This document shows, piece after piece, positions 13,565 to 49,951 of a stretch of DNA of 64,000 bases. The notes below the pieces were generated by a model. The model worked only from the letters and a program-made list of their open reading frames with translations, did not search any database and was not told where the DNA came from. Both the position numbers and the translations under genes were made by a program. Numbering within the stretch: position 1 is the stretch's first letter; every line of letters starts with the position of its first letter. The stretch is from an uncultured Gemmatimonadota bacterium (GTDB taxonomy: Bacteria; JAAXHH01): positions 608,001-672,000 of the forward strand of contig OX638340.1 in assembly GCA_951812955.1 (NCBI GenBank), written 5' to 3'.

Positions 13565-14845
13565 CTAAGCCCTGAAGAGATTCCGCGCCTTGTGAATGGC
13601 GGCGATCATGACATCGATCTCTTCGGAGGTGTTGTAGAAGTAGACACTTGCGCGCGCCGTAGCGCCATAGGGCGTGCCGAGTCGCCGCATCAGCGGTTGC
13701 GCGCAGTGATGACCCGCGCGGATGGCGACCCCCTGCCGATCCAGCACGGTGGACAGATCGCTGGGATGCATGTCTTCCAGGTTGAAAGAAACGGCGCCTC
13801 CCCTGCCCGGCGCGTGGCCGTAGACGGTCAGGCCGTCAATTTCCTCGAGCCGTCCGACCATGTAGTCCGTCAGCGCTCTTTCATGGGTATGAATCTGCTC
13901 CATGCCGACAGCTTCGAGGTAATCCACCACGTCTCCGAACACGATGGCATGGGCGATATTCGGGGTGCCTGCTTCGAATTTCTCTGGTATGTCCGCACAG
14001 GTAAACCCATCGAGGCGGACTTCGTCGATCATCGATCCCCCGCCCATGTACGGATCCATGGCTTCCAGCAGTTCCTCACGCCCGTAGAGTCCGCCGATAC
14101 CGGTCGGACCGCACATCTTGTGGCCGGAGAAGGCAAAGAAGTCGCAATCCAGACGCTGTACGTCCACCGGCATGTGAGGAACGCTTTGCGCGGCGTCTAA
14201 GAAGACCAGCGCGCTGGCCTGGCGGGCCCGCGTTACGATGTCGTCGATGGGGTTGACGGTACCGAGTACGTTCGACATGTGTGCGAGGGCGACGATGCGC
14301 GTCTTCTCCGAGATCAGCCGGTCCGCCTGTTCCATGTCGAGGGACCCGTCGTCTCGAATGTCGAAATACCGGATGACAGCGCCGGTTTCCTTCGCGAGCA
14401 TCTGCCAGGGCACGATATTGCTATGGTGCTCCATGACGGACAGCACGATTTCGTCCCCTGCCCGGACGTTCTTCCGGCCCCAGGCAGTGGCGACCAGGTT
14501 TATGCCTTCGGTGGTGTTGCGGACGAACACCAGGTTCCGGGCCGGCGCGTTGATGAATCGAGCCACTCGCTCCCGGGCGCCTTCGTAGGCATTGGTCGCT
14601 TCCTCGCTGAGCGTGTGGAGGCCGCGGTGTACATTGGCGTTGAGCCTGGTATAGTAATCGTCGAGGGCGTCGAGTACGACCCGGGGTTTCTGCGACGTCG
14701 CGCTGTTGTCCAGGTAGACCAGCGGTTTCCCGTGTATCCTGCGATCTAGAATTGGAAAATCACCGCGGTACCGCAGGGCGTGTTCGTCCGACCGGCGTAC
14801 CGCTTCATCCAGTTCTCGTGGCGTCTCAACCAGCGTTTCCGACAT
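13565..14845 (-). CDS. sufS: Cysteine desulfurase SufS (class V aminotransferase, group II).
   Basis: PLP-Lys context FSGHKMCGPTGIGGLYG. SufS active-site signature RAGHHCAQP. The ORF extends to 14890, but the ATG at 14845 (MSETLV) avoids overlap with the upstream gene. Confidence 0.9.
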   Translation of the reverse strand: MSETLVETPRELDEAVRRSDEHALRYRGDFPILDRRIHGKPLVYLDNSATSQKPRVVLDALDDYYTRLNANVHRGLHTLSEEATNAYEGARERVARFINAPARNLVFVRNTTEGINLVATAWGRKNVRAGDEIVLSVMEHHSNIVPWQMLAKETGAVIRYFDIRDDGSLDMEQADRLISEKTRIVALAHMSNVLGTVNPIDDIVTRARQASALVFLDAAQSVPHMPVDVQRLDCDFFAFSGHKMCGPTGIGGLYGREELLEAMDPYMGGGSMIDEVRLDGFTCADIPEKFEAGTPNIAHAIVFGDVVDYLEAVGMEQIHTHERALTDYMVGRLEEIDGLTVYGHAPGRGGAVSFNLEDMHPSDLSTVLDRQGVAIRAGHHCAQPLMRRLGTPYGATARASVYFYNTSEEIDVMIAAIHKARNLFRA

Positions 14846-14867
14846 AGATCCCTTACCAGCCAGGTGT

Positions 14868-15182
14868 TCAGTAGTCGATGCCAAGTTCAAGCTTGGCGTC
14901 TTCGGTCATCATGTCGATATGCCAGGTCGGTTCCCAGACGATCTCGATCAGCGCGTCCGAGACCTGTTCCAGGTCCTTCACCTTGGTCTCCACCTCGGCG
15001 GGGAGCGACTGGGCCGCCGGACAGTTCGGCGAGGTGAGCGTCATCTTGATGTTCGTCATACCGTCCTGTTGCACGTCGATCTCGTAGATCAGTCCCATTT
15101 CGTAGATGTTGACCGGGATCTCGGGATCGTAACACGACTTCAATACGTCCACGATCTGCTCTTTAACGGCATCCGTATCCAT
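14868..15182 (-). CDS. DUF59 / MIP18-family Fe-S assembly protein (SufT-like).
   Basis: 104 aa. DUF59 motifs (VLKSCYDPEIPVNIYEMGLIY...TLTSPNCPAAQSL). Embedded between sufD and sufS. Confidence 0.7.
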   Translation of the reverse strand: MDTDAVKEQIVDVLKSCYDPEIPVNIYEMGLIYEIDVQQDGMTNIKMTLTSPNCPAAQSLPAEVETKVKDLEQVSDALIEIVWEPTWHIDMMTEDAKLELGIDY

Positions 15183-15213
15183 CCATAGACTCCTGTAAGC
15201 GTGAATGCGCCGG

Positions 15214-16584
15214 TTATCTTCCCGCCTTGTCCCTGGCCAACGAAAGATCCCGGATCGTGGTCTCGAAAAGCGTATCCAGCGAGGACCTGACCGCGTCGAT
15301 CCTGAGACGCCGTATCAGGTCCGCCGCAAACCCGTAGGTGAGTAGACTGCATGCGCTGTCGTGTGACAGACCGCGGGTTCGCAGGTAGAAAATCTGGTCT
15401 TCGTCGAGCTGGCCCACGGTGGCGCCATGGGTGCATTTCACCTGGTCCGCGTAGATTTCGAGCTGCGGCTTGGTGTGTATCATCGCATCGGGCGACAGCA
15501 TCAGATTCTTGTTCAGTTGCTTGGCATCCGTTTCCTGGGCGTCCTGGTGGACGAACACTTTGCCGTTGAATACTCCGCGCGACCGGCCTTCAAGGATGCC
15601 CTTGTAAACCTCGTAGCTATCGCAGTTGGGTACGGCATGATCAATCGCGGTGTGATTGTCCACATGCTGATTTCCCGTAACCAGGAACAGTCCGTTCATG
15701 CGAACCACCGCGTGCTCGCCGTCAAGTCGGGCATTGGTGTCGTTGCGGGTCAACGCGCCGCCCATGCACATGTTGAAGGTTGAGATCCGGCCGTTCCCTT
15801 CCAGGTGCAGTTGTGTGGTGGAAAGGTGCGCGGCTCCGGCGCCTTCCCGGTTGATCCGGTAGTGATCCACGTTGCCGTCCCGGCCCACGGCGATCTCAGT
15901 CACCGCGTTGGTCAGGTAAGCCTGTTCGGTGAGCCCGGTATAGCTTTCGACCACTTTGAGGCTCGCGCCGTCGCCCGCCGCGATGAGCGTACGCGGCTGC
16001 GTGGCCAATGGCGTATCATGACCGGCGGTGACGTAGTGGACGTGCACGGGCGTTTCAAGGTGCCCGCCACGGGGTACATAAACGAACAGCCCATTCTCGA
16101 AGAGTGCCGAGTTCAAGGCCGTCAGGCCGGTTCGTTCAAACTCGGCATATCGTGCAAGGTGAGGACGAACCAACTCCGGGTGTTCGACCAGCGCTTCGGC
16201 AAGGGTGCTCACCACGGCGCCACCGGGCAGGCCGTCTACACGCGACAACGCGGGCGAGAACACACCGTTCACAAAAACCAGCCGGTGCCAGTCGTCCTGA
16301 CCGAATTCGTAAGGCGCAAGCGCGGCCTCATCGAGTCGAGCTTCTACCGGCCCTGCGTGATAGGATGTTTCCGCGATGCCTCGAAGATCGGTGTATACCC
16401 AGTCTTCCCTGAGCGGGAAGGCAATCTCACGTGCGACCGGCATCCCCAGTTCCCTGAAGTGCGCCATGGCATCCGAGCGAAGCCGGTGCAGCCACAACGG
16501 CGCGTCCTGGGACAGGACACGGTCGAAAGCATCATAGAACGTGGTGTAACGAGCCGTCTCTGCCTGTTTTATTGCTTCTGTCAT
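15214..16584 (-). CDS. sufD: Fe-S cluster assembly protein SufD.
   Basis: SufBD beta-helix domain. Start chosen at the internal ATG (MTEAIKQ), which gives a 28-nt gap to sufC. The longer ORF would overlap sufC. Confidence 0.8.
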   Translation of the reverse strand: MTEAIKQAETARYTTFYDAFDRVLSQDAPLWLHRLRSDAMAHFRELGMPVAREIAFPLREDWVYTDLRGIAETSYHAGPVEARLDEAALAPYEFGQDDWHRLVFVNGVFSPALSRVDGLPGGAVVSTLAEALVEHPELVRPHLARYAEFERTGLTALNSALFENGLFVYVPRGGHLETPVHVHYVTAGHDTPLATQPRTLIAAGDGASLKVVESYTGLTEQAYLTNAVTEIAVGRDGNVDHYRINREGAGAAHLSTTQLHLEGNGRISTFNMCMGGALTRNDTNARLDGEHAVVRMNGLFLVTGNQHVDNHTAIDHAVPNCDSYEVYKGILEGRSRGVFNGKVFVHQDAQETDAKQLNKNLMLSPDAMIHTKPQLEIYADQVKCTHGATVGQLDEDQIFYLRTRGLSHDSACSLLTYGFAADLIRRLRIDAVRSSLDTLFETTIRDLSLARDKAGR

Positions 16585-16612
16585 TTCGTGTTCCCGTTCT
16601 CCCTGTGATCGC

Positions 16613-17377
16613 TTAACCGGCTGCTTCCACTTCCTCCCGAATCCACTCGTAACCTCGTTCTTCCAGCTGGAGAGCGAGGTCTTTTTCACCAGACTTGACG
16701 ATCCGGCCCTCGTACATGACGTGCACGTAGTCCGGCACCACGTAATCCAGCAGTCGCTGGTAGTGGGTGATGACGATCATCGCATTGTCGGCTGATCGCT
16801 GCTGGTTGATCCCGCGCGCCACGATCCGCATGGCATCGATGTCCAGGCCGGAATCGGTCTCGTCCAGTATGGACAGAGTCGGCTCGAGCACGGCCATGTG
16901 GAAGATCTCGTTGCGTTTCTTCTCGCCGCCGGAGAAGTCCTCGTTCACCGGCCGCCTCGCCAGATCGGGGTCCATGTCGACCTGCTTCATCTTTTCGTTC
17001 ATCAACCGGCGGAACGCACCAGCGCTCATCTCCGACTCGCCCCGGTACTTCAGGCGCTCGTTCAGCGCGGCCCGCAGGAAGTAGGCATTGCTTACGCCGG
17101 GAATCTCGACGGGATACTGAAAGGCCAGGAACATGCCCTCGTTAGCCCGCTCCTCGGGTGTCAGCTCGAAGAGGTCCTTGCCATGGAACCGTACCGTGCC
17201 ACCGGTCTCCGCGTATTCCTCGTGGCCGGCCAGGATTTTGCCCAGGGTACTTTTGCCGGATCCGTTGGGACCCATGATCGCGTGCACCTCGCCCCGGTTG
17301 ACCGTCAGGTCGATCCCGTTTATGATGTCCAGGTCCTTGATGCCGCCGCGCAGATTTCTGATTTCCAGTAATGCCAT
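16613..17377 (-). CDS. sufC: Fe-S cluster assembly ATPase SufC.
   Basis: Walker A GPNGSGKST. ABC signature FSGGEKKR. 254 aa. Confidence 0.9.
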   Translation of the reverse strand: MALLEIRNLRGGIKDLDIINGIDLTVNRGEVHAIMGPNGSGKSTLGKILAGHEEYAETGGTVRFHGKDLFELTPEERANEGMFLAFQYPVEIPGVSNAYFLRAALNERLKYRGESEMSAGAFRRLMNEKMKQVDMDPDLARRPVNEDFSGGEKKRNEIFHMAVLEPTLSILDETDSGLDIDAMRIVARGINQQRSADNAMIVITHYQRLLDYVVPDYVHVMYEGRIVKSGEKDLALQLEERGYEWIREEVEAAG

Positions 17378-17434
17378 GTTACGTTCCGTCTCCCGTTAAT
17401 GTATTGAACAGATTCCCGACTGCCGTCCGCTCCG

Positions 17435-18868
17435 TTAGCCTACGCTGCCTTCCAAGCTGATCCCCAGCAGCTTCTTCGCCTCCACGGCGAATTCCATGGG
17501 CAGTTCCTGAAACACTTCCTTGCAGAACCCGTTGATAATCATGGAAATGGCGTCTTCCGTGGATATGCCCCGGGTCTTGCAGTAGAATAACTGGTCTTCG
17601 CTGATCCGCGCCGTAGACGCTTCGTGTTCCACGCTCGCGGTGTTATTGCCCACGTCGATATAGGGGAAGGTGTGGGCACCGCAGCGGTCGCCGATGAGCA
17701 TCGAATCGCACTGGGTATAGTTCTTGGCTCCATCGGCCTTCTTCAGTACCTGGATCCGGCCCCGGTATACGTTCTGGCCGTTTCCGGCGGATATCCCTTT
17801 CGATACCACCGTGCTGCGCGTGTCCTTTCCCACGTGGATCATCTTGGTTCCCGTATCGGCCACCTGCTTGTTGCGGGTCAGCGCCACGGAATAGAACTCG
17901 CCGATCGAATGGTCGCCCTGCAGGATCACGCTGGGGTACTTCCAGGTGATGGCGGACCCCGTTTCCACCTGCGTCCAGGAGATCTTGGCGTTGTCCCCCT
18001 TGCAGATTCCGCGCTTGGTCACGAAGTTGTATACGCCGCCCTTTCCCTCTTCATTGCCGGGATACCAGTTCTGCACCGTGGAGTACTTGATCTGGGCGTC
18101 CTTCAGCGCAACCAGTTCCACGACGGCCGCGTGCAGTTGATTCTCGTCGCGCATCGGCGCGGTACAACCCTCGAGGTAGCTGACGTAGGAGCCCTCGTCG
18201 GCAATGATCAGCGTACGCTCGAATTGTCCCGTTCCGGCCGTGTTGATCCGGAAATAGGTGGACAGTTCCATGGGACACCGTACGCCGGGAGGGATGTAGC
18301 AGAAGGAACCGTCGCTGAAGACGGCCGAGTTCAGCGATGCAAAGTAGTTGTCCCTGTAGGGCACCACGGTACCCAGGTACTTCTCCACCAGGTCGGGATG
18401 TTCCTGCGCCGCTTCCGAGAAGGAACAGAAGATGATGCCCAGTTCTGCCAGCTTGTCCTTGAAGGTCGTGTGGACCGACACGCTGTCGAAAACCGCGTCC
18501 ACGGCCACGCCCGCTAGCATCTTCTGTTCCTCCAGCGGTATACCGAGCTTGTTGTAGGTTTCCAGCAGCTCGGGATCCACCTCGTCAAGGCTGTTGAATT
18601 CCGGCGTGTTCTTCGGCGCGGCGTAATAGACGATGTTCTGGTAATCGACCGGCGGATAGGCCATGTACTGCCAGTTGGGCTCCTTCATCTTGAGCCAGTG
18701 GCGATACGCCTTCAGACGCCATTCCAGCAGGAACCCGGGCTCATTCTTCTTTGCGGATATGAACCGGACTATATCCTCGTTGAGTCCCGGCGGCGCCGTT
18801 TCCATCTCGATATCGGTAACCCAGCCTTCTTTGTATTCCTGTTGGGCCAGGGTCTCAATGGCTTCCAT
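17435..18868 (-). CDS. sufB: Fe-S cluster assembly scaffold SufB.
   Basis: 477 aa. Characteristic SufB N-terminus ([28 protein letters not shown]) and the C-terminal SufBD domain. Confidence 0.9.
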
Positions 18869-23340: not shown

Positions 23341-24318
23341 CTATCGGCCATAGACCGTCTGGATCATCGCACGGATGTAGCCGTTCGCGTAGGCCTTGCC
23401 TGCCGGACCAGCCATTGATTGGGGGAAGCCCGGTGTGTGGTCCATGCCGAAGGGGCCGCTGTACCCGTTATCGCGGTAGGTTTCCATGGCCCGGCGCATA
23501 TCCACTTCGCCCTCGTCGATGAAAACCTCCGCGAACCTCGGCAGCCGGCCTCTGACGTTCCGGAAATGGACCAGGGCGATCTTTTTCCGGGAGGCCATCT
23601 CGGCGATGATATGGTAGACGTCCTGTGGACCCGCCAGTTCGGTCATGCAACCCTGGCAGAAGAGCATCCTGTGATATGCGCTGGGTACCGCGTCGAAAAT
23701 CCGGCGGAAATGCTCCACCGTGGAGCAGATCTGCGCGACGCCGCCCAGAGGCTCCGGTATGGGCGGGTCGTCCGGGTGGAGCGCCAGGTTTACCCCGGCC
23801 TTTTCGGCCGCCGGGACCGCGGCGCGCATGAAGGCGACCATGTTGTCCCACATCACCTCGGCCGAGACGGGCGGCTCGTGGGGCTGCGGGCGGCTCCGGT
23901 CGAATTCGGCATAATCGAAGGTACTGTACACCGCGCCGCCGCGGCCGATGTCGGAAATGGTGCGGAAGTTGCCCATGGGCTTGAAATTCCAGGCCAGGGT
24001 CGGTATCCCTGCCTTGCCCAGGCATTCGATAAGCCGGACGAAAGCGCCCAGTTCTTCGTCCCGTTCCGCCGTGGCCAGCGTGATCCCCTCCAGGACCGGC
24101 ATGAAGACGGTCTGCAGTTTCAGCCCATGGGACTCGGTCTTTTCCCGGGCCTGTTCGAAAAGCTCGGTACTGTCTTTGCCCGCACGAACGTGCCGTTCCG
24201 CTTCGACCTTCCCTCCGGTCCTCAGGTCCAGCTGGATCATGTCCACGCTGATCGCGCGATAGAAACTAAGGGTCTCGTCGTTGAAATCGGACCAGTTTAC
24301 GACATCATGCAGGTACAT
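23341..24318 (-). CDS. uxuA: D-mannonate dehydratase (UxuA family, xylose-isomerase-like TIM barrel).
   Basis: Matches UxuA blocks: FMPVLEG (cf. FMPVLDW), LALHPDDPPIPEPLGGVAQICSTVEH (cf. [24 protein letters not shown]), HFRNVRG, GMDHTPG. Confidence 0.7.
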   Translation of the reverse strand: MYLHDVVNWSDFNDETLSFYRAISVDMIQLDLRTGGKVEAERHVRAGKDSTELFEQAREKTESHGLKLQTVFMPVLEGITLATAERDEELGAFVRLIECLGKAGIPTLAWNFKPMGNFRTISDIGRGGAVYSTFDYAEFDRSRPQPHEPPVSAEVMWDNMVAFMRAAVPAAEKAGVNLALHPDDPPIPEPLGGVAQICSTVEHFRRIFDAVPSAYHRMLFCQGCMTELAGPQDVYHIIAEMASRKKIALVHFRNVRGRLPRFAEVFIDEGEVDMRRAMETYRDNGYSGPFGMDHTPGFPQSMAGPAGKAYANGYIRAMIQTVYGR

Positions 24319-24380: not shown

Positions 24381-24428
24381 TGGTGATCTGGTGATCTGGT
24401 GATCTGGTGATCTGGTGATCTGGTGATA
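24381..24428. repeat. Perfect 8-bp microsatellite (TGGTGATC)x5 plus one variant copy (TGGTGATA). It lies in the divergent promoter between uxuA (-) and the HpcH aldolase gene (+). Every full unit contains GATC.
   Basis: Read directly from the sequence: tggtgatctggtgatctggtgatctggtgatctggtgatctggtgata. Confidence 0.9.
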
Positions 24429-24524: not shown

Positions 24525-24550
24525 CGGTAGTCCGGCGCACCCGTAGGCAT

Positions 24551-24618
24551 AGCGCATCCATAGGCTAAGCGCATCCGTAGACTGAGCGCATCCGTAAGCC
24601 GGCGCATCCGAATATCGC
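24551..24618. repeat. Four tandem degenerate 17-bp direct repeats (core AGCGCATCCGTA) between the putative promoter and the HpcH aldolase start.
   Basis: agcgcatccataggcta / agcgcatccgtagactg / agcgcatccgtaagccg / gcgcatccgaatatcgc. Confidence 0.8.
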
Positions 24619-24687: not shown

Positions 24688-25413
24688 ATGGCGGAACGCA
24701 ACTTGAAACAGCGCATCGGCGCGGGAGAACAGGTCATCGGCGCTAACGTCGGCATGTCCCATACAAGGGAACAGCTTAAAAAGGTAGTAGAGTCAGGTGA
24801 GTACGACTTTCTCTGGGTAGACGGACAGCACAGCGCTTTCAGCGAAGACTCCCTGGTGGAATTCTGCGACAGGGCCGATGCGCTGGATGCCGACGTCATG
24901 TTCCGCATCAAGCACACGTTTCACAGCTACCTGGTCGGTAACCTGCTCGACCTTGGGCCCGCCGGGATCGAAGTGCCCCAGGTCGAATTGGAATCAACGG
25001 TGGATGAGGCGGTCGACTTCTTCTACTATCCTCAGCAGGGCATGCGGAGCTGGGGAGGCGGAGCGCGGCGTAAAGTGGATGAACAGGGCGGCGACCGGCT
25101 GGGCTATGCCGAGTGGTGGAACAACTACGGCGTGCTGATGATGCAGCTTGAATCGATACCCGCGGTGACAGGTGCGCGGAGACTGGCCAAAGCGGGGGTA
25201 GACTGCCTGTCCTTCGGTCCAAACGATCTCATGTACAGTATCGAGGCCCATCCGCACCATCCGTTCCGCGACGTGGACGATTGCGTTCGCCACGTGGTCG
25301 AACAGCTCGCCGGTTCCGGTACGAGGGTGTGTTTCCGGAACCACCCGGCCAGCATGCGGCAGCGGTACGTTGACATGGGTGTAACGGTGTTTCTGGAGAG
25401 TCCGTCGCTGTAG
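24688..25413 (+). CDS. HpcH/HpaI-family 2-keto-3-deoxy-sugar-acid aldolase.
   Basis: 241 aa. Family blocks GANVGMSHTRE, DFLWVDGQHSAFSE, MFRIKHT, ESIPAVTGA, CLSFGPNDL. Confidence 0.7.
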   Translation: MAERNLKQRIGAGEQVIGANVGMSHTREQLKKVVESGEYDFLWVDGQHSAFSEDSLVEFCDRADALDADVMFRIKHTFHSYLVGNLLDLGPAGIEVPQVELESTVDEAVDFFYYPQQGMRSWGGGARRKVDEQGGDRLGYAEWWNNYGVLMMQLESIPAVTGARRLAKAGVDCLSFGPNDLMYSIEAHPHHPFRDVDDCVRHVVEQLAGSGTRVCFRNHPASMRQRYVDMGVTVFLESPSL

Positions 25414-27470: not shown

Positions 27471-28742
27471 CTATCCCTGCCCCGATCCGCCGAGGACGTC
27501 TTCCAACTCGTTCACGAACACCTCGAGTTCGTCCGGCTTCCCGATGGTTACCCGCAGGTGATTGCTCAGGAGATTGATCTCCCTCGTCCGGTACCCGGAA
27601 CCGCCCCGTACCATCACGCCGCGTTCCATAAGCGCGGAGCCCATGCGGCGGCTGTCCCGCTTGACGTCCACGATCATGTAATTGCCGTGGCTCGGTGTGT
27701 ATGCCAGTCCCAGACGGTCGAATTCGGCGGACAGGTAGTCCTTGCCGTCGCTCACGACCTCTTTCGTACGGGCTACGAATTCGTGATCGTCCAGGGCCGC
27801 GAGGGCCGCGTGCATGCCCAGGGTGCTCAGTCCGCCGCCGAAGAACCCCATGTGCGCCATCAGCATATCCATCATGCGCTGGCTGCCGATCGCGTACCCG
27901 ATTCGCATGCCGGCCAAGCCGTAGATCTTGGAAAAAGTACGGGCGACGACCACATTGTCTCGCTCCAGGGCGAGTTTCGCGGCATCCCGGTAGTCCGGAT
28001 CCCGGACGAAGTGGATGTAGGCCTCGTCGATGAGGACGATGGCCTGCGCTGGCGCCGCGTCTACGAGGGACACCAGGTCCTCGTAGGGCACGATCGTTCC
28101 CGTGGGATTGTTGGGATTGGTGACGACGATCAGGGATGTTCTTGGAGTGATTGCCGCCTTCATGGCGTCGAGGTCGTGAACGAAGTCAGCCGTCGTGGGA
28201 ACGCGGACGGTACTGACGTCCTTGCCCATCATCTGATAGGTTTGAAAACCACGCGCGACCGATCCATAACCCGGGACCGCCTCGATGCACTCCCCGCCAT
28301 TGCTCGCGGCTATTACGGCCAGCGCCTGTAGTATCGGACCGGAACCAGGCGTGACCATTACCCGGTTCAACTCCCTGAAACGCATGAATGACCGCATGTC
28401 GCTAAAGCTCAGTTCGAAATCCTCGACACCCGGAACGCCGTGTAATTTGTTGAGACGAACGGGCAGATCGACACCGAAATCGTACCGGTTGATCTTGTGC
28501 AGGTTTTCGGCAATGGCCGCAACGGCGCGTGGCGAAGCGCCCAGGGGATTCTCGTTGGCTCCAATCTGGACCCGGCCCGGTTCCACGCCGTATCCGCGGA
28601 CGTCGCCGGCCTTCTTACCGGTCGCCATGGCCTGCGCGATCTCCCAGGCCGAACCTGAGGCGAGGGCGCCGGCACCCAGCAGGGCGCCTTTCATGAATCG
28701 ACGCCGCGTAAACCCGTTTTTTAATACACTCCCGAAACCCAT
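27471..28742 (-). CDS. Class I/II PLP-dependent aminotransferase (histidinol-phosphate/aromatic aminotransferase-like) with an N-terminal twin-arginine (Tat) signal peptide. Putatively periplasmic.
   Basis: Tat motif TRRRFMKGALLGAGALASGSAWE. Aminotransferase blocks GANENPLGASP, NPNNPTG. PLP-Lys context TFSKIYGLAGMRIGY. Confidence 0.75.
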   Translation of the reverse strand: MGFGSVLKNGFTRRRFMKGALLGAGALASGSAWEIAQAMATGKKAGDVRGYGVEPGRVQIGANENPLGASPRAVAAIAENLHKINRYDFGVDLPVRLNKLHGVPGVEDFELSFSDMRSFMRFRELNRVMVTPGSGPILQALAVIAASNGGECIEAVPGYGSVARGFQTYQMMGKDVSTVRVPTTADFVHDLDAMKAAITPRTSLIVVTNPNNPTGTIVPYEDLVSLVDAAPAQAIVLIDEAYIHFVRDPDYRDAAKLALERDNVVVARTFSKIYGLAGMRIGYAIGSQRMMDMLMAHMGFFGGGLSTLGMHAALAALDDHEFVARTKEVVSDGKDYLSAEFDRLGLAYTPSHGNYMIVDVKRDSRRMGSALMERGVMVRGGSGYRTREINLLSNHLRVTIGKPDELEVFVNELEDVLGGSGQG

Positions 28743-28903
28743 GGTATGAACCTCCATTCAATGATTACTCGTAAATTGCATCGTATCTACAAAGTGTACA
28801 CCACCTAAGAGTCTGAACCTCCAACTAAAGATTGCCTGCGGATTTCCCACCATCCAAATGTGTAACGCCTGAATTCGAAACCTTATTTCGCTACCTTATT
28901 TCG

Positions 28904-30568
28904 TTACCTGATGTTGAGCCTTGCCATTTGCGTGACGATGTAGTCGGCGCAGCGGAACGCGAGCGCCTGTATGGTTAGCGTCGGGTTGCTCTTGCCGCTG
29001 GTGACGAAGGACGAACCGTCGACGATGAACAGGTTGTCCACGTCGTGGGCCTGGTTGAACTTGTTCACGACCGACGTCGCCGGATCGTTGCCCATTCGGC
29101 AAGTGCCCATGAGATGGGCGTCGCCATGGGGCACGAAATTCGGAGAGGCCACGATCCCATGGGCGCCGGCGGTGTCCAGCAGTTCGCGTGCGCGGTCCCG
29201 AAAGAAGTCGCCGAGTTTGTGCTCGTTCGGATGCACGTTGTACGTCACACGCGGTACCGGCAGGCCCCACTTGTCGTTTACGTCCGGGTCCAGGTCGATC
29301 ATGTTGGATTCCTGGGACATGGACTGCATGCTGGTAAGGGCGACCATGTACCGGGTGTAATTGTCCATGATCCATTTCTTGCGGCGGGCGCCCCACCTGC
29401 GGAGCCGGGGCATGTTCAGGTTGGCGAAGGAAATGGTTTCGCCGTCACCCCGCGGTTCCAGCACGCCTCCGCCGAAGAAACCGTACTTGTCCGGATCCGG
29501 GTCGTAGAAATCCTGGATAATGCGTGAATCCATGACGCCTTTGTACTCGTTGAGATCCTTTTCGTAGAATCCCCGGGCGGACTGGTAGTAGTTGAACATC
29601 AGGTGCCTTCCCACCTTGCCGCTGCTGTTGGCGAGGCCGTCCGGAAAGAGATTGGACTTCGACATGAGCAGCAGGCGCGGCGTATGGACGCCGTTACAGC
29701 AAACGATTACCGCGCGGGCTTCCAACCGGTGTTCACGCAGGTCTTTATCCAGATAGATCACTCCCTCGGCCCGGCCATCCTCGTCGACCACGATCTCCCG
29801 AACGCAGGCATCGGCCCGTATCTGGCAGTTGCCCGTCCTCAGCGCCTGGGGAATCATGGTAACCAGCATGCTGGACCGCGCGCCGATGGTACAGACGTAA
29901 CTTTCGCAGAAACCGCAATTCATGACCGGCGGCCGGCCTCCGTATTCCCGCGAGTTGATTGCCAGCGGCGCCGGATACGAGTGCCATCCCAGCTTCTGGG
30001 CGGCCATGTCTGCCAGGGCGCCCGAACTGGTTCGCGGCACCGGCGGCATGGGGTAGGGACGGCGTCGCGGCGGATCGAAGGGATTGGCGCCCGCCAGGCC
30101 GGATATCCCGACTTCGTATTCGGCCTTCTCGTAGTAATGTTCCAGGTCCCAGTAGTCGATGGGCCAGTCCTGCACGTCCGCGCCGTCCAGGTCGCCGAAA
30201 AGGCTTCTTTCCTTGAAATCGTTCTCGTGCAGCCGCCAGGAAATACCGGTGTAATGGAGCGTGCTGCCGCCCACCGTGCTTTGCATGTGAATCCCGTGAT
30301 CTTCAACGGCCTGATCGTCCGACGACTGCCGGTACGTATTGGGCTGATCGTGGCGATAGATGTTGGGATGGTCATGGTTATTGCTGGCGGGATGCATCGC
30401 CTGGAGTTCGTCCTGGTCGAAGTGGCGCGTCTTTTGAAATGATCCCATTTCCATGGCGACCACCTGCAGGCCCTTCGTGCTCAGTTCCTTGGCCATGACC
30501 GCGCCGGCGGCGCCTGTGCCGATGACGATGACGTCCGGTCGTCGAATCGTGGGATTGGGCAGGGACAT
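28904..30568 (-). CDS. GMC-family FAD-dependent oxidoreductase, large subunit (gluconate 2-dehydrogenase / glycoside 3-dehydrogenase-like).
   Basis: Rossmann FAD motif [22 protein letters not shown]-terminal blocks ([33 protein letters not shown]). 554 aa. Confidence 0.8.
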
Positions 30569-37747: not shown

Positions 37748-38845
37748 CTACTTCCTGCTTCCCGCGTAAAAAGGCAGATTCACCACCTCGGCCGGGATGT
37801 GCCTGCCCCTTATAGTCACCGCCAGGACCGTGCCGGGTTCCGCCCGATCAACGGACACGAACCCCGTCCCGATTCCATGTCCCAGCGTGGGCGAAATCGC
37901 GCCGCTGACGACTTGCCCCACCGGGCTTCCGTCGTGAACGATCTCATATCCCTGCCTGGGTATTCCCCTTTCCTGCATCCTCAGCCCGACCAGTTTTCGT
38001 TTCACGCCTGCTCGTTTGAGACGCTTGAGGGCATCCCGTCCGGTAAACGCTGGTTTCTTCAGCCTGACCGTCCATCCCAGACCGGCTTCGAACGGATTGA
38101 TCGATTCGTCGATCTCGTGTCCGTACAGCGCGAGTCCGGCTTCCAGTCGAAGGGTATCTCTTGCCCCCAGGCCGCACGGCTGCAATCCTGCCGAAGCACC
38201 GGAATCCATCAGGAGGTCCCATAGCGCGGCGGCATGCTCGGCCGGATACCAGATTTCGAAACCGTCCTCGCCCGTGTATCCGGTCCGAAACACCCTGGCT
38301 TCAATTCCCCCTATGCGGGTTACAACGAATTCCTGAAACCTTAGCGCGTCCAATCCGGCCTCCGTCAGCGGATCGAGTATTTCCTCGCTGCGGGGTCCCT
38401 GCAACGCGATGAGCATACTCTCCTCGCTCAGATCGCGTATTTCGACGTTGTACGCGGAGACGGACCGGCGAAACCAGGCAAGGTCCTTTTCCCTGTTGCC
38501 CGCGTTGGGAATGACCAGCAGACGGTCCGGCATCCGGTAAACCAGGAAATCATCGATTACGCCGCCGTCGTCAGCGCAGGCCAGGGTATACTGTGACCGA
38601 AAGGGCTTGAGCCGTTCGACGTCGTTTACCGTAATGCGATTCACGAAGTCCACGGCGTCCGGCCCGCATATCTCGACGCGGCCCATGTGGGAAACGTCGA
38701 ACAGGCCGGCCCGGGTGCGAACCGCGTGATGTTCAGTCAGAATCCCCTCGTACTGAACCGGCATCTCCCAGCCGCTGAACGGCACCAGTTTCGCACCCAG
38801 GTCCATGTGGCGCCCATACAGCGCGGTTCTGCGTAGTTCCGACAT
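37748..38845 (-). CDS. gcvT: Glycine cleavage system T protein (aminomethyltransferase). No gcvH or gcvP is adjacent.
   Basis: GcvT blocks GWEMPVQYEGILTEHHAVRTRAGLFDVSHMGRVEI and FRTGYTGEDGFEIW. 365 aa. Confidence 0.85.
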   Translation of the reverse strand: MSELRRTALYGRHMDLGAKLVPFSGWEMPVQYEGILTEHHAVRTRAGLFDVSHMGRVEICGPDAVDFVNRITVNDVERLKPFRSQYTLACADDGGVIDDFLVYRMPDRLLVIPNAGNREKDLAWFRRSVSAYNVEIRDLSEESMLIALQGPRSEEILDPLTEAGLDALRFQEFVVTRIGGIEARVFRTGYTGEDGFEIWYPAEHAAALWDLLMDSGASAGLQPCGLGARDTLRLEAGLALYGHEIDESINPFEAGLGWTVRLKKPAFTGRDALKRLKRAGVKRKLVGLRMQERGIPRQGYEIVHDGSPVGQVVSGAISPTLGHGIGTGFVSVDRAEPGTVLAVTIRGRHIPAEVVNLPFYAGSRK

Positions 38846-38897
38846 GAGATGCTCCCGGCGTCTGAGATGCTCCCGGCGATTGAGATGCTCCCGGCGT
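38844..38897. repeat. Perfect 18-bp tandem repeat x3 (TGAGATGCTCCCGGCG + 2 nt). It directly abuts, and includes, the gcvT ribosome-binding site and start codon.
   Basis: Plus strand: tgagatgctcccggcgtc tgagatgctcccggcgat tgagatgctcccggcgtt. On the gcvT mRNA this gives three copies of CGCCGGGAGCAUCUCA, the last immediately followed by the AUG. Confidence 0.9.
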
Positions 38898-39053
38898 TAA
38901 TACACAACGTTCACCCCTCGCATTTAACGCACGGTCCTTTGACGGTGTCAATACAAAAACGAGATTCGTGATGCGTTTCCGACTGATTGGGACAGACGGA
39001 TATCGCAGGTCAACGAACACGCGTCATCTATCATCAGAAGGAATAACCCGATC

Positions 39054-40841
39054 ATGATAAGAAAACACCATTTTGCCGTCACTGCACTATGCCTGTGTCT
39101 CACCGGAAAAGCCGCGGGTTCGGATGTCGTTATATCGGAGGTCCTGGCCGATCCTCATACAGAATCAAAAGGCGAGTTTGTCGAACTCTACAACGCGGGA
39201 GACGAACCGGTTGATCTCGACGGATGGCCCCTCGGTGATTCAAGGGATGTGAACGATACGATCATGGACTTCACCGGCCCACATGACATCGGCCTCGCAG
39301 GTACCGTACTGGCGCCGGGTGCATACGCGCTCGTCGTGGATCCTGATTACGAAGGAGCATACAACGTCCGGGTCGGCGTGGAAGGCGATCCCGCGAGCCT
39401 CCTTATGCTGACGGTCAAGGGCGACCGTACCCTTGGCAATGGGCTCGGCAACAGCCAGGACCTGGTCTTCATAAAGAAAGACGATATCACGATCGACCAG
39501 TTCGCATGGACCGAATCGGCGGGCGGTAACGGCATCTCCTGGGAGCGGACGCGATTGGACTTGCCCGTGGATGCAGCCAATCTCTTGTCGTCCGAACATC
39601 CCGATGGTTCGACTCCGGGGTTCAGAAACAGCACGTCGAACGATCCGCCTGCCGCACCGGAGCCGGAGGAACCCGGGGAACCGATCGTTCCAGAAGAACC
39701 GCATGAACCTGGCGGACCGGAGGACCCCGCCGAACCGACGGAGCCGGAAACGCCCACCGGGCCTGTTGATCCCGCCGAACCGGACGAGCCTGTCGAGCCC
39801 GGGGAGCCCGACCAGCCTGCTGAACCGACGGAACCCGGGGTGCCCGGGGATCCGGACGAGCCTGTCGAGCCCGGTGAGCCCGACGAACCGAACGAGCCTG
39901 TCGAGCCCGACGAGCCTGCTGAACCGCAGGAGCCCATGGACCCCGAAAAAACCGACGGGCCGACGGAGCCGGAAACGCCCACCGGGCCCGTTGATCCGTC
40001 GGAACCGATGCCTCCTCAGAACGCCGACCGGTCCTTGGAAAACGTGTTTATCAATGAAATCATGTTCAACCCGGGTCCGAACCGAACAGAATGGATTGAA
40101 TTACACAACAGGGGAAGGACCGAGATTGATCTTGCCGGCAGTATGCTGAGGCTGGATCACGTTGACCGGACGCGGCTCATTTCCTCGGATCGCCTCGTGA
40201 TCGAAGGCCAGGGGTTTCTCGTCATTGCGCACGACGCGGTCCTGTTCCATGAGACGTATCCCGGATTCGCAGGAATCGCGGTGGAAGCGGTGGGCGGTTG
40301 GGAGCGACTCCGAAACAGCGGTGCAAGGTTGTTGCTCCTGGATGCAGGTGGCAAAACCATACACGATGCGGAGTACGACGAGGAATCAAATCCCGATCCA
40401 GGCCGTTCCGTGGAACTGGTAAACCCGGACTTCGAGCCACAGATCTGGGGGCCTTCTGCCGATCCCGAAGGGAGCACTCCGGGCCGGAGGAACGCGCTGA
40501 ATGTAACTCATATCCCCGACGGAGTTTCGCTCCACGTCGCCAACAATCCATTCTCCCCGGATGGCGACAATTATGAGGACATTTGCCTGGTGACTGTTGA
40601 ACTGCCCGCATCCCACGGCATTCTGCATGCCATGGTTTTCGATATCAGCGGTCGATTTCTCAAAACGCTCATTAATCAGACTGCCGTAGCCAGCCGGCAT
40701 GTATTCTCCTGGGACGGAACGGATCAACACGGACGCAGCCTGCCCGTCGGTCCGTACATTCTATACGTGGAACAGATGCTGCCCACACTCGACAGGCTGA
40801 CGGCTTCCAAGCACGTGGTTGTGATCGCATCTTCGCCATGA
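39054..40841 (+). CDS. Secreted multidomain protein: signal peptide, lamin-tail domain (LTD), Pro/Glu-rich (EPxEP) repetitive linker, second LTD, and a C-terminal FlgD-Ig-like / T9SS-type (Por) sorting domain.
   Basis: Signal peptide MIRKHHFAVTALCLCLTGKAAG. LTD motifs VVISEVLADP...EFVELYN and VFINEIMFNPG...EWIELHN. A linker of about 110 aa built of PEP/EPT repeats, with a duplicated segment PTEPETPTGPVDP. C-terminus NPFSPDGDNYEDICLVTVELP...VFDISGRFLKTLIN...WDGTDQHGRSLPVGPYILYV. Confidence 0.7.
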   Translation: MIRKHHFAVTALCLCLTGKAAGSDVVISEVLADPHTESKGEFVELYNAGDEPVDLDGWPLGDSRDVNDTIMDFTGPHDIGLAGTVLAPGAYALVVDPDYEGAYNVRVGVEGDPASLLMLTVKGDRTLGNGLGNSQDLVFIKKDDITIDQFAWTESAGGNGISWERTRLDLPVDAANLLSSEHPDGSTPGFRNSTSNDPPAAPEPEEPGEPIVPEEPHEPGGPEDPAEPTEPETPTGPVDPAEPDEPVEPGEPDQPAEPTEPGVPGDPDEPVEPGEPDEPNEPVEPDEPAEPQEPMDPEKTDGPTEPETPTGPVDPSEPMPPQNADRSLENVFINEIMFNPGPNRTEWIELHNRGRTEIDLAGSMLRLDHVDRTRLISSDRLVIEGQGFLVIAHDAVLFHETYPGFAGIAVEAVGGWERLRNSGARLLLLDAGGKTIHDAEYDEESNPDPGRSVELVNPDFEPQIWGPSADPEGSTPGRRNALNVTHIPDGVSLHVANNPFSPDGDNYEDICLVTVELPASHGILHAMVFDISGRFLKTLINQTAVASRHVFSWDGTDQHGRSLPVGPYILYVEQMLPTLDRLTASKHVVVIASSP

Positions 40842-48493: not shown

Positions 48494-49951
48494 TCAGATC
48501 CTTCTGCGCATTCGCGCAATGGGTATTCCCAGGTTCTCGCGGTACTTCGCCACCGTTCGCCGCTTGATCTGCACGCCCTCCTTCGATCGCAGGATGTCCT
48601 CGATAGCCTGATCACTCAGTGGCGCGTGCGCGTCTTCTTCATCGATGATCTGTGCGATCCGGTCCTTGACAGTCTTTGTTGCCAGTTGGCCGTCCGGGAC
48701 GTCTTCGGCGTTATTCGACGTTTTTTTCTTCAATCGACCATCGAAGAAAAACCTCAGCGCGTAAATCCCTCGGGGAGTCTGTACGTACTTGCCTTGCGTC
48801 GCCCGGCTGACGGTCGTTACATGCAGGCCTGCCTCGTCTGCCACCTCCTGAAGAATCATCGGTCTGAGAAAGGACAGGCCCGCATCCAGGAACTCGCGCT
48901 GGGCTTTAACGATGCAGTTCGTCACTTTCAACAAGGTAGACCGACGTTGTTCAATGGAGCTCACGAAGTGATTCGCTTCGGTCAACTTTCGCCTCACGTA
49001 CCGCCGATCCTCTTCTGTGGAATGCTCATGACGGCTCAGGATGACCTGGTACGCACGGCTGACTCGCACCCGGGGGAGGTTGCGGTCGTTGAGATACGCG
49101 ATGTATTCTCCCTCCACTTTTTCAACAATCAGGTCGGGGTGAATGGCAATTACGGATGAATCCCCGTAGGCAAGCCCGGGGTGGGGATTGAGTCCCGCGA
49201 CCACATTCAAGGCATCCCCGATTTCTTTCTCGGATGCCCCCATCTTCTTGCGAATCGAAGCGATGCGCCGCAATTTGACGTCGCGCCAGTTTTCGGAAAT
49301 CATCCGGAACGCGAGCGTATCATGCAAGTCCAGTGCATCCAACTGAAGCATGAGACACTCTCGCAGGTCTCGCGCGCCCACACCGGTAGGTTCGAGGGTC
49401 TGTACGATCTTCAGGACCCGTTCCGCCTCGTCGAACGGTAAGCCAGACTCCAGCGCCAGGTCAAGCAACGGAACATCGAACAGGCCGCTGTCGTTCAGAT
49501 TTCCGATCAGGTATTCACCGATCTCAAGATCCCGTGTGGACAGATCCAGGAGACGCAATTGCTCGACGAGGTACTGTGTGAGCGTTGCCCCCGACTTCCC
49601 CTCGCGTTCAAGGATGTTTTGATCTTCCCGTTTTTCAGACTCTTCGCGGGAATCCATCTGGTTGTGCATGCCGTCTTGTATATAGGCATCCCAGTCGATT
49701 TTATCCCGATCGGACGTCATTTCTCCAGGGTCGTCCTCACGCGTCGCATCCGGTTCCTCCGCCAGAGATTCGCCCGCTGAATCTTCCTCCGCCTCACGTG
49801 TCTCGTCTTCAAGTTCCAGCAGCGGATTCTCCTCGATTTTCGCCTTGATCTCCTGTTCGAGTTCCACCGTGGTGTACTGCAGCAGTTTGAGCGAGTACAT
49901 CAACTGTGGAGAAAACTGCTGTCTTGTCTGCGGCTGAAGCTGGAATTCCAT
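48494..49951 (-). CDS. rpoN: RNA polymerase sigma-54 factor.
   Basis: N-terminal Gln/Leu-rich activator-interacting region (MEFQLQPQTRQQFSPQLMYSLKLLQ). C-terminal RpoN box ARRTVAKYRE. 485 aa. Confidence 0.9.
   Translation of the reverse strand: MEFQLQPQTRQQFSPQLMYSLKLLQYTTVELEQEIKAKIEENPLLELEDETREAEEDSAGESLAEEPDATREDDPGEMTSDRDKIDWDAYIQDGMHNQMDSREESEKREDQNILEREGKSGATLTQYLVEQLRLLDLSTRDLEIGEYLIGNLNDSGLFDVPLLDLALESGLPFDEAERVLKIVQTLEPTGVGARDLRECLMLQLDALDLHDTLAFRMISENWRDVKLRRIASIRKKMGASEKEIGDALNVVAGLNPHPGLAYGDSSVIAIHPDLIVEKVEGEYIAYLNDRNLPRVRVSRAYQVILSRHEHSTEEDRRYVRRKLTEANHFVSSIEQRRSTLLKVTNCIVKAQREFLDAGLSFLRPMILQEVADEAGLHVTTVSRATQGKYVQTPRGIYALRFFFDGRLKKKTSNNAEDVPDGQLATKTVKDRIAQIIDEEDAHAPLSDQAIEDILRSKEGVQIKRRTVAKYRENLGIPIARMRRRI

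What the first reader, a model, noticed from the sequence alone, without database searches (positions are those of the whole stretch)
38844..38897. Triplicated 18-bp repeat that duplicates the gcvT Shine-Dalgarno region
Three perfect tandem copies of an 18-bp unit end exactly at the gcvT start codon. On the mRNA this gives CGCCGGGAGCAUCUCA three times, with GGGAG 6 nt before the AUG in the last copy. The array therefore presents three SD-like sequences in a row, only the last followed by AUG, plus three antisense AUGs on the other strand. This could tune translation initiation through ribosome standby or stacking, or be a recent slippage expansion that may vary between strains. No glycine-riboswitch-like sequence (GGAGAG...ACCGAAGGGGCAA) was seen upstream, and gcvT stands alone without gcvH or gcvP. 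It may therefore be an aminomethyltransferase paralog with its own regulation.
Basis: seen in the sequence. Interest (0 to 1): 0.5.

Follow-up and report, generated by a model that had tools for sequence, protein, structure and literature searches.

The report
Strain-variable repeat of gcvT ribosome-binding site
The untranslated leader of the glycine-cleavage gene gcvT carries a short tandem repeat that copies the gene's ribosome-binding site three times; related strains of this uncultured bacterium carry three to five copies and sister species only one, so it is a real strain-variable repeat whose effect on expression is untested.

Summary
The repeat is real. A perfect 16-mer, CGCCGGGAGCATCTCA, occurs three times on the minus strand at 18-nt spacing. 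The last copy supplies the GGGAG Shine-Dalgarno (SD) sequence and the A of the gcvT start codon. The copies are not perfect 18-mers, because the 2-nt linkers differ.

The array lies in the 5' leader, downstream of a conserved TTGACA-N18-TTAAAT promoter-like block.

Nine distinct alleles were recovered from same-species assemblies (gcvT DNA 95.6-99.4% identical). They hold 3, 4 or 5 units of 16-18 nt. Relatives at 89%, 83% and 81% GcvT identity have one ribosome-binding site (RBS) and no array. Units share allele-specific variants, which indicates slippage or recombination turnover. GGAG survives in 32 of 34 units.

No array contains a start codon, and the reading frame across it is not conserved, so it is not coding.

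No glycine riboswitch is present, and the scan detected riboswitches in control loci. The protein passes the GcvT equivalog model, so the "paralog" idea is not supported.

Best reading: a slippage-generated minisatellite of the RBS, whose upstream copies are non-initiating SD sites in a weakly structured leader. A quantitative effect on ribosome loading or mRNA stability is plausible but inferred. A neutral repeat polymorphism is a strong rival. Interest is moderate.

The parts
38845..38897 (-). The tandem array. It has three units (17, 18 and 18 nt), each holding the exact 16-mer CGCCGGGAGCATCTCA. It lies in the gcvT 5' leader and ends on the A of the start codon.
   Evidence: Copy number is polymorphic in relatives.
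38881..38897 (-). Unit 1 (A + 16-mer). It carries an upstream SD-like GGGAG with no start codon at initiating distance.
38863..38880 (-). Unit 2 (AT + 16-mer). It carries an upstream SD-like GGGAG with no start codon at initiating distance.
38845..38862 (-). Unit 3 (GA + 16-mer). This is the working ribosome-binding site: GGGAG at 38856-38852, a 6-nt spacer, then the ATG.
   Evidence: Orthologues have an SD at the same place (AAGGAG in L001, GGGGGAG in L002, GGGAG in L163).
37748..38845 (-). gcvT coding sequence (365 aa), a bona fide glycine-cleavage T protein.
   Evidence: Pfam GCV_T and GCV_T_C. NCBIfam TIGR00528 at 395 bits against a cutoff of 235.85.
38898..38916 (-). Non-repeated 5' part of the inferred leader (GGGGTGAACGTTGTGTATTA). 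It holds the only GTG/TTG candidates upstream of the ATG, and a TAA (38899-38897) in frame with gcvT just before the array.
   Evidence: The transcription start is inferred from the -10 position and is not measured.
38922..38951 (-). Putative sigma-70-type promoter: TTGACA (38951-38946), an 18-nt spacer, then TTAAAT (38927-38922).
   Evidence: Read. The block is conserved in L001 (TTGACA/TTACAT), L002 (TTGACA/TTAAAT), L163 (TTGACA/TTTAAT) and all same-species loci. The consensus scanner did not call it.
39054..40841 (+). Divergent neighbour gene encoding a Lamin-tail-domain / FlgD-Ig protein. It marks the other end of the 208-bp intergenic region and is syntenic in all relatives.

Best explanation
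The feature is a species-specific minisatellite (a variable-number tandem repeat, VNTR) made by tandem duplication of the gcvT ribosome-binding region, that is, the SD sequence plus the spacer up to the start codon.

Shown:
- The array sits between a conserved promoter-like block and the ATG, so it lies in the 5' untranslated leader.
- Only the last unit abuts a start codon.
- Copy number (3-5) and unit sequence differ between strains of one species, while sister species have a single RBS.
- Units within one allele share derived variants. The array is therefore remodelled, by replication slippage or unequal recombination, faster than point mutations accumulate.
- The array holds no start codon and has no conserved reading frame.
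- The leader has no stable or conserved structure.

Inferred:
- On the mRNA, the upstream units are extra, non-initiating 30S-binding sites (GGAG) spaced 17-18 nt apart in an open leader.
- The most likely consequence is a modest, copy-number-dependent change in GcvT output. It would act through ribosome loading (standby recruitment, or at 18-nt spacing competition with and occlusion of the true RBS) and/or through STAB-SD-like protection of the 5' end.
- The sign and size of the effect are not known.
For: - Exact triple 16-mer ending at the ATG.
- Nine alleles from independent assemblies with gcvT coding DNA 95.6-99.4% identical to the window. They hold 3 units (window, L164, L162), 4 units (L165-168 and L180; L169-176; L177-179; L181; L182-183) or 5 units (L161).
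- The same allele was recovered repeatedly from different samples and assemblers, short-read and long-read. The L169 type was found 8 times and the L165 type 5 times. This rules out assembly noise.
- A single RBS in L163 (89% amino-acid identity), L001 (83%) and L002 (81%).
- Among 179 fetched loci, no tandem array abuts the gcvT start outside this clade.
- Allele-specific variants are shared between units: A before GGAG in L169, T in L181, a deleted C in L165, and CACC in L164/L162.
- GGAG is kept in 32 of 34 units and in 24 of 25 upstream units, while the base before it takes all four values.
- No ATG, GTG or TTG lies inside any array, and the frame relative to gcvT differs between alleles.
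- Leader folding z-scores range from -0.5 to +2.1, and 7 of 9 are positive, meaning less stable than shuffles.
- The organism uses SD sequences: a motif lies upstream of 30 of 51 crude ORF starts, against a 17% background.
- Published precedents: STAB-SD (Agaisse & Lereclus 1996, cited in PMC12970973); standby loading on a leader (PMC5924895, PMC5934652); occlusion of a main RBS by an upstream RBS 3-25 nt away (bioRxiv 10.64898/2026.05.12.723736); and engineered extra SDs in E. coli, which changed protein and mRNA levels non-monotonically (PMC9338883).
Against: - No expression data exist for this uncultured organism.
- A partition-function model gives the same RBS opening energy (10.9-11.9 kcal/mol) for 1-5 copies, so folding predicts no copy-number effect.
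- Conservation inside the units is not specific to GGAG. The following CA and the final CTCA are just as invariant, so recent common origin explains the pattern as well as selection does.
- Nine alleles are too few to show that fewer than 3 copies is selected against.
- The transcription start is inferred, not mapped.
Confidence: 0.5

Rival explanations
1. Selectively neutral minisatellite. The RBS region happened to duplicate by slippage in the ancestor of this species. Copy number then drifts between 3 and 5, and the upstream copies have no meaningful effect on GcvT expression.
For: - Copy number and unit sequence vary freely between closely related strains.
- Sister species do well with one copy.
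- Folding predicts no accessibility change with copy number.
- Conservation within units is not specific to the SD.
- The same locus holds another hypervariable repeat, inside the neighbouring LTD gene, so the region may simply be repeat-prone.
Against: - All nine alleles keep at least 3 units, and none has collapsed to 1-2 despite evident turnover.
- GGAG survives in 24 of 25 upstream units while adjacent positions vary.
- No substitution has created a start codon in any of the 34 units.
- Each of these signals is weak, because the sample is small and the units are not independent.
- Inserting 36-72 nt carrying SD motifs right next to an RBS usually changes expression in tested systems.
Confidence: 0.35
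2. Multi-site target for an RNA-binding repressor of the CsrA/RsmA type. Each unit offers a GGA motif, one overlapping the true SD. The 17-18 nt spacing would allow a dimer to bridge neighbouring sites and block initiation.
For: - Every unit but one contains GGA.
- Spacing is regular at 17-18 nt.
- From my own knowledge, not checked here: CsrA dimers bridge two GGA sites about 10-63 nt apart, with an optimum near 18 nt (Mercante et al. 2009).
Against: - GGA is part of any SD, so it does not discriminate.
- The base 5' of GGA takes all four values, whereas CsrA sites prefer A/R-GGA.
- The motifs are not presented in stable hairpin loops.
- No csrA gene lies in the window, although 64 kb is uninformative on this point.
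- Sister species lack the extra sites.
Confidence: 0.07
3. DNA-level element. The direct repeats are binding sites (an operator or iteron) for a transcription factor acting on gcvT or on the divergent LTD gene.
For: Regularly spaced direct repeats lie in a divergent intergenic region.
Against: - The repeats lie downstream of the conserved promoter block, next to the ATG.
- They are absent from sister species, which keep the promoter and other conserved upstream blocks.
- The number of sites and their sequence vary between strains.
- An 18-bp period is out of helical phase.
Confidence: 0.04
4. Coding sequence. The array encodes a repeated leader peptide or an N-terminal extension of GcvT (18 nt = 6 codons), or the antisense 40-aa ORF at 38849-38971 is a gene.
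For: - The 18-nt period is a multiple of 3 in the window.
- One gene caller extended gcvT through the array in L162.
- Three in-frame antisense ATGs are present.
Against: - In the window a TAA sits in frame immediately before the array, and no start codon lies inside it.
- Units are 16-18 nt long in other alleles, so the frame and the implied peptides differ (RREHL..., TPGASQ..., SPGAIQ...).
- The GcvT N-terminus MSELRRTALY aligns with orthologues from residue 1.
Confidence: 0.02

Closest known systems
Bacterial intergenic VNTRs / minisatellites (for example the loci used for MLVA typing, and mycobacterial MIRU-VNTR loci upstream of or between genes)
   Same: Head-to-tail units longer than 10 bp in a non-coding region. 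Copy number and unit sequence differ between strains of one species. The origin is slippage or unequal recombination. Alleles are stable enough to be recovered unchanged from independent samples.
   Different: Here the unit is the gene's own ribosome-binding region, and the array ends exactly on the start codon. It is a single locus, not a dispersed family: the 16-mer occurs nowhere else in the window. MIRUs are 40-100 bp and interspersed (my own knowledge).
STAB-SD (Bacillus thuringiensis cry3Aa leader; Agaisse & Lereclus 1996)
   Same: [quoted passage not shown] It is proposed to bind the 30S subunit and so protect the mRNA (PMC12970973).
   Different: STAB-SD is a single, strong site (GAAAGGAGG) near a processed 5' end, far from the start codon. 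Here there are 2-4 moderate GGAG sites in tandem, directly next to the real RBS. Stabilisation was not tested, and the RNase J dependence is unknown in this phylum.
Ribosome standby sites, and occlusion of a main RBS by an upstream RBS
   Same: An unstructured leader upstream of the RBS can hold a 30S subunit (PMC5934652, PMC5924895). Closely spaced upstream RBSs, 3-25 nt away, can lower main-ORF translation by occlusion (bioRxiv 10.64898/2026.05.12.723736). The array offers both geometries: 18 nt and 36 nt upstream.
   Different: Classical standby sites rescue a structured RBS, and here the RBS is not predicted to be strongly sequestered. The occluding upstream RBSs described so far include a start codon, and these units have none.
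Simple-sequence contingency loci (phase variation by repeats in promoters or ORFs)
   Same: A repeat tract next to a gene start whose length changes by slippage.
   Different: The unit is 17-18 nt, not 1-9 nt. The tract lies neither between -35 and -10 nor in the ORF, so length changes cannot switch the gene off. Alleles are identical across many samples, so the mutation rate is far below phase-variation rates.
Glycine riboswitch upstream of gcvT (RF00504)
   Same: It occupies the same place, the gcvT leader, in many bacteria.
   Different: No match at all in the window or in its clade.

Membership tests
Bacterial VNTR / minisatellite | Head-to-tail repeat units of about 10-100 bp | tested here: met
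   Period 18, 2.9 copies, score 92. Three exact 16-mers at 18-nt spacing.
Bacterial VNTR / minisatellite | Copy number differs between strains of the same species | tested here: met
   3, 4 or 5 units in nine alleles from loci whose gcvT coding DNA is 95.6-99.4% identical to the window.
Phase-variable contingency locus | Short unit (1-9 nt), placed so that length changes switch expression on and off | tested here: not met
   The unit is 16-18 nt. The array lies in the leader, downstream of the -10 box and upstream of the ATG.
Phase-variable contingency locus | Length heterogeneity within populations | not testable with these tools
   Only consensus assemblies are available. Identical alleles in 8 and 5 independent assemblies argue for stability.
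Glycine riboswitch (RF00504) | Match to the covariance model at or above the gathering score | tested here: not met
   No hit at E<=10 in 38000-39800 and none in the whole window. The positive control found 10 aptamer hits in Firmicutes gcvT loci.
STAB-SD-type stabiliser | SD-complementary sequence in the 5' UTR with no start codon at initiating distance | tested here: met
   GGGAG in units 1 and 2. No ATG, GTG or TTG anywhere in the array.
STAB-SD-type stabiliser | Increases mRNA half-life through 30S binding | not testable with these tools
   This needs mRNA decay measurements.
Ribosome standby site | Single-stranded region upstream of the RBS | tested here: met
   Leader folding is no more stable than shuffles: z = +0.58 for the window leader, and 7 of 9 alleles are positive.
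Ribosome standby site | It rescues an RBS that is sequestered in stable structure | tested here: inconclusive
   The predicted opening energy of the RBS window is about 11-12 kcal/mol and does not change with 1-5 copies. No conserved hairpin covers the RBS.
CsrA/RsmA-regulated leader | Several GGA motifs, one overlapping the SD, typically in hairpin loops | tested here: inconclusive
   GGA is present in 33 of 34 units, but not in stable loops, and the 5' neighbouring base is not conserved.
CsrA/RsmA-regulated leader | The genome encodes CsrA | not testable with these tools
   No hit in the 64-kb window. The rest of the genome is not available.
GcvT (glycine cleavage T protein), for the downstream gene | Score above the equivalog cutoff of TIGR00528 | tested here: met
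   395.4 bits against a cutoff of 235.85, and NF001567 at 452.7 bits against 300.
Leader peptide / uORF | A start codon and a reading frame conserved between alleles | tested here: not met
   There is no start codon in any array, and frames differ because units are 16-18 nt.

The most novel reading that the evidence does not exclude
The array is a naturally evolved, heritably adjustable 'translation rheostat'. It would be a tandem set of Shine-Dalgarno-bearing units that selection keeps at 3 or more copies in this species. The upstream units would act as a ribosome-loading (standby) and 5'-end-protecting platform. Slippage between 3, 4 and 5 units would give strains different set-points of glycine-cleavage capacity without any regulator or riboswitch.
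Probability: 0.15. Interest if true: 0.6.

Novelty: new variant of a known kind. Interest (0 to 1): 0.35.

Why it matters
If the upstream SD copies change GcvT output, this would be a natural example of tuning gene expression by changing the copy number of a ribosome-binding site. That principle is known from synthetic constructs (extra SDs, standby sites) but, as far as my full-text searches went, has not been described as a strain-variable natural array.

It would also show how a lineage that lacks the glycine riboswitch sets gcvT expression.

If the array is neutral, it is still a convenient strain marker for an uncultured FCB-group bacterium, whose MAGs are labelled Latescibacterota or Gemmatimonadota. 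Either way, the finding does not change any major concept.

Tried and rejected
- **Glycine riboswitch or any Rfam family: rejected.** There were no hits, and the positive control worked.
- **Aminomethyltransferase paralog: rejected.** The protein passes the GcvT equivalog model.
- **Stable or conserved leader structure, thermometer or sequestered SD: rejected.** Leader folding is no better than shuffles. Modelled RBS accessibility is unchanged for 1-5 copies.
- **Coding (leader peptide, N-terminal extension, antisense ORF): rejected.** There is no start codon, an in-frame TAA precedes the array, and the frame is not conserved.
- **Dispersed repeat family: rejected for this window.** The 16-mer occurs only here.
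- **Exact-protein look-up: no record.** The look-up of the window's own GcvT, and of the identical P0132, found nothing. Relatives were reached through the 90% cluster members instead.
- **csrA in the window: nothing found, and uninformative**.
- **Selection test on GGAG: not significant.** Only 2 changes fall in the 4 GGAG columns, but CA and CTCA are equally invariant and the units are not independent.
- **Consensus promoter scanner: no call.** It did not call the conserved TTGACA-N18-TTAAAT block. That promoter assignment rests on conservation only.

Full report
**1. The observation**

Read on the minus strand, 38897-38843 is A-CGCCGGGAGCATCTCA-AT-CGCCGGGAGCATCTCA-GA-CGCCGGGAGCATCTCA-TG.

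The 16-mer occurs exactly three times, at 38881-38896, 38863-38878 and 38845-38860. It occurs nowhere else in the 64 kb, even with three mismatches allowed. Tandem Repeats Finder reports period 18, 2.9 copies, 91% matches and score 92, and the repeat finder gives 18-nt spacing.

The rest of the description is right:
- GGGAG (38856-38852) lies 6 nt before the ATG (38845-38843).
- The A of the ATG is the last base of the third 16-mer.
- Three ATGs lie on the opposite strand.

**2. Context**

The downstream ORF, 37748-38845 (-), is a full-length GcvT. Pfam finds GCV_T and GCV_T_C. It scores 395 bits on the NCBIfam equivalog TIGR00528 (cutoff 235.85) and 453 bits on NF001567 (cutoff 300). The "paralog" suggestion is not supported.

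gcvT is monocistronic here. A Lamin-tail-domain / FlgD-Ig protein gene diverges from it at 39054, and a PfkB kinase gene converges on its 3' end. Six ORFs of 441-491 aa elsewhere in the window, the size expected for split gcvP subunits, turned out to be SufS/B/D, RpoN, an LptD-like protein and a GHMP kinase.

No Rfam family matches 38000-39800 at E<=10, and none matches the whole window at gathering score. The same scan found tandem glycine-riboswitch aptamers in front of gcvT in four Firmicutes loci, but none in the window's relatives. The absence is therefore real.

A block TTGACA-N18-TTAAAT (38951-38922) lies upstream of the array. It is conserved in relatives down to 81% GcvT identity, while the surrounding intergenic DNA diverges. 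I take it as the promoter. This is an inference: the consensus scanner did not call it. It places the transcription start near 38915 and puts the array in a 5' leader of about 70 nt.

The organism uses SD sequences. A GGAG/GAGG/AGGA/GGGA motif precedes 30 of 51 crude ORF starts, against a 17% background.

**3. Related sequences**

The closest species representatives in GTDB genomes are MAGs labelled Latescibacterota or simply "bacterium" (83% and 81% GcvT identity). They are syntenic and have one RBS...attaaGGAGtatctcATG and ...GGGGGAGcgttgcATG.

A protein search found a 90% cluster with 17 members that are 95.9-100% identical to the window's GcvT, plus an 89% relative. Their contigs were fetched and the leaders extracted.

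The 89% relative (L163) has a single unit, CACCGGGAGCATCTCATG.

All same-species loci (gcvT coding DNA 95.6-99.4% identical) carry an array. There are nine distinct alleles:

| Units | Alleles |
|---|---|
| 3 | window, L164, L162 |
| 4 | L165-168 and L180; L169-176; L177-179; L181; L182-183 |
| 5 | L161 |

The same allele recurs in independent samples, from both short-read and long-read assemblers. The L169 type was found eight times and the L165 type five times. The arrays are therefore not assembly artefacts, and they are stable on ecological time scales.

Among the other roughly 155 gcvT loci fetched, none has a tandem array abutting the start codon.

**4. Anatomy across alleles**

- The 34 units are 16-18 nt long.
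- GGAG is kept in 32 of 34 units and in 24 of 25 non-terminal units.
- The base before GGAG takes all four values, and the left part (linker + CGCC) carries most substitutions and 1-nt indels.
- The following CA and the final CTCA are as invariant as GGAG. Conservation is therefore not demonstrably specific to the SD.
- Derived variants are shared by several units of one allele: A-GGAG in L169, T-GGAG in L181, a deleted C in L165, and CACC in L164/L162. In the window all three 16-mers are identical, although its nearest relative by coding sequence (L164, 99.4%) has three diverged units.

This is the signature of turnover by slippage or unequal recombination (concerted evolution), running faster than point-mutation divergence.

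No ATG, GTG or TTG occurs inside any array. In the window a TAA sits in frame immediately before it. The frame across the array relative to gcvT differs between alleles. Coding readings (leader peptide, N-terminal extension, antisense ORF) are therefore rejected.

**5. RNA structure**

The window leader plus the start of the gene folds no better than shuffles (z = +1.76). Leaders of the nine alleles give z from -0.5 to +2.1, with seven positive, and show no common structure.

A partition-function estimate of the energy needed to open the RBS (-20 to +13) is 10.9-11.9 kcal/mol for constructs with 1 to 5 units. Folding alone therefore predicts no copy-number effect.

**6. Mechanism**

Shown: the array is a strain-variable minisatellite made of copies of the RBS region, located in an open leader, and only its last unit is followed by a start codon.

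Inferred: the upstream GGAG sites can bind 30S subunits without initiating. The literature gives three ways in which such sites act:
- STAB-SD-type protection of the mRNA 5' end (Agaisse & Lereclus 1996, as cited in PMC12970973).
- Standby loading of a second 30S on the leader while the start site is occupied (PMC5924895; also PMC5934652).
- Occlusion of the main RBS by a ribosome bound 3-25 nt upstream (bioRxiv 10.64898/2026.05.12.723736).

With units 18 nt apart, the nearest upstream unit is at occlusion distance and the next (36 nt) at standby distance. The net sign cannot be predicted.

In an engineered E. coli case, one added SD gave the largest rise in protein and mRNA. Two added SDs gave a smaller rise. 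Three or four were reported as detrimental in the GFP test (PMC9338883).

I therefore commit to a modest, copy-number-dependent modulation of ribosome loading and/or mRNA stability as the most likely function (about 0.5). A neutral VNTR is the main rival (about 0.35). Hints against neutrality are weak: no allele has fewer than 3 units, GGAG is retained, and no start codon has arisen.

A CsrA-type multi-GGA target (about 0.07), a DNA operator (about 0.04) and coding (about 0.02) are less likely, for the reasons given under rival explanations.

**7. Comparison with known systems, and novelty**

It qualifies as a bacterial VNTR/minisatellite; both defining features were tested and met.

It is not any of the following:
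- a simple-sequence contingency locus, because of its unit size and position;
- a riboswitch;
- a dispersed repeat family;
- a uORF.

It resembles STAB-SD and standby or occluding upstream RBSs in what it could do, but membership cannot be tested without experiments.

Full-text searches for natural tandem or duplicated SD arrays returned only engineered constructs, STAB-SD and multiple SD motifs in cry gene leaders. An RBS-unit VNTR therefore appears to be an undescribed variant of a known kind, within the limits of that library.

**8. Verdict**

This is a real, polymorphic, lineage-specific repeat of the gcvT ribosome-binding site. The paralog idea is rejected, and the translational-tuning idea remains plausible but untested. 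Interest is moderate (0.35).

Noticed in passing
window 24381-24427 and 24535-24610: Two more intergenic tandem arrays share one divergent promoter region. One is a perfect (TGGTGATC) x5.9. The other is a 17-bp unit, GCGCATCCGTAGGCTAA, at about 4.4 copies. They lie between a UxuA-like gene (23341-24318, -) and an HpcH/HpaI aldolase gene (24688-25413, +). An 8-bp perfect repeat upstream of a gene start could alter promoter geometry if its length varies.
   Followed up: no
window 39761-39971 (inside the LTD-domain gene 39054-40841, +): A coding minisatellite with periods 9/18/27/36 encodes a Pro/Glu-rich PEPxEP linker. The protein length differs between strains (571-640 aa), and the gene is called in fragments in L162 and L177. 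The gcvT-LTD locus therefore carries two independent hypervariable repeats.
   Followed up: partly
window 38990-38946 (- strand): Two sequence blocks upstream of and overlapping the putative -35 box are conserved in relatives down to 81% GcvT identity, while neighbouring intergenic bases diverge. They are CCCAATCAGTCGGAAAC and ATCTCGTTTTTGTATTGACA. They are candidate regulator or UP-element sites for gcvT or for the divergent LTD gene.
   Followed up: no
L162 1501-2406: In one long-read contig the gcvT homologue is called as a 301-aa product. It starts at a TTG upstream of the array, which is in frame there because the last unit is 2 nt shorter, and it ends prematurely. This is either a pseudogene or a sequencing frameshift.
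   Followed up: partly
window vs L164: The gcvT coding DNA of L164 is 99.4% identical to the window. The 130 nt of promoter/intergenic DNA are only 93.1% identical, and the array allele differs. The window's intergenic DNA is closer to L165 and L177 (96.2%). This suggests a recombination breakpoint near the gene start.
   Followed up: no
window 28880-28909: A 13-bp unit, ACCTTATTTCGCT, at 2.3 copies lies about 120 nt upstream of an aminotransferase gene (27471-28757, -).
   Followed up: no
window 48494-49951 (-) and 13565-18868 (-): The window encodes sigma-54 (RpoN) and a suf Fe-S cluster assembly set (SufS-like, SufB, SufD). This is context only.
   Followed up: no
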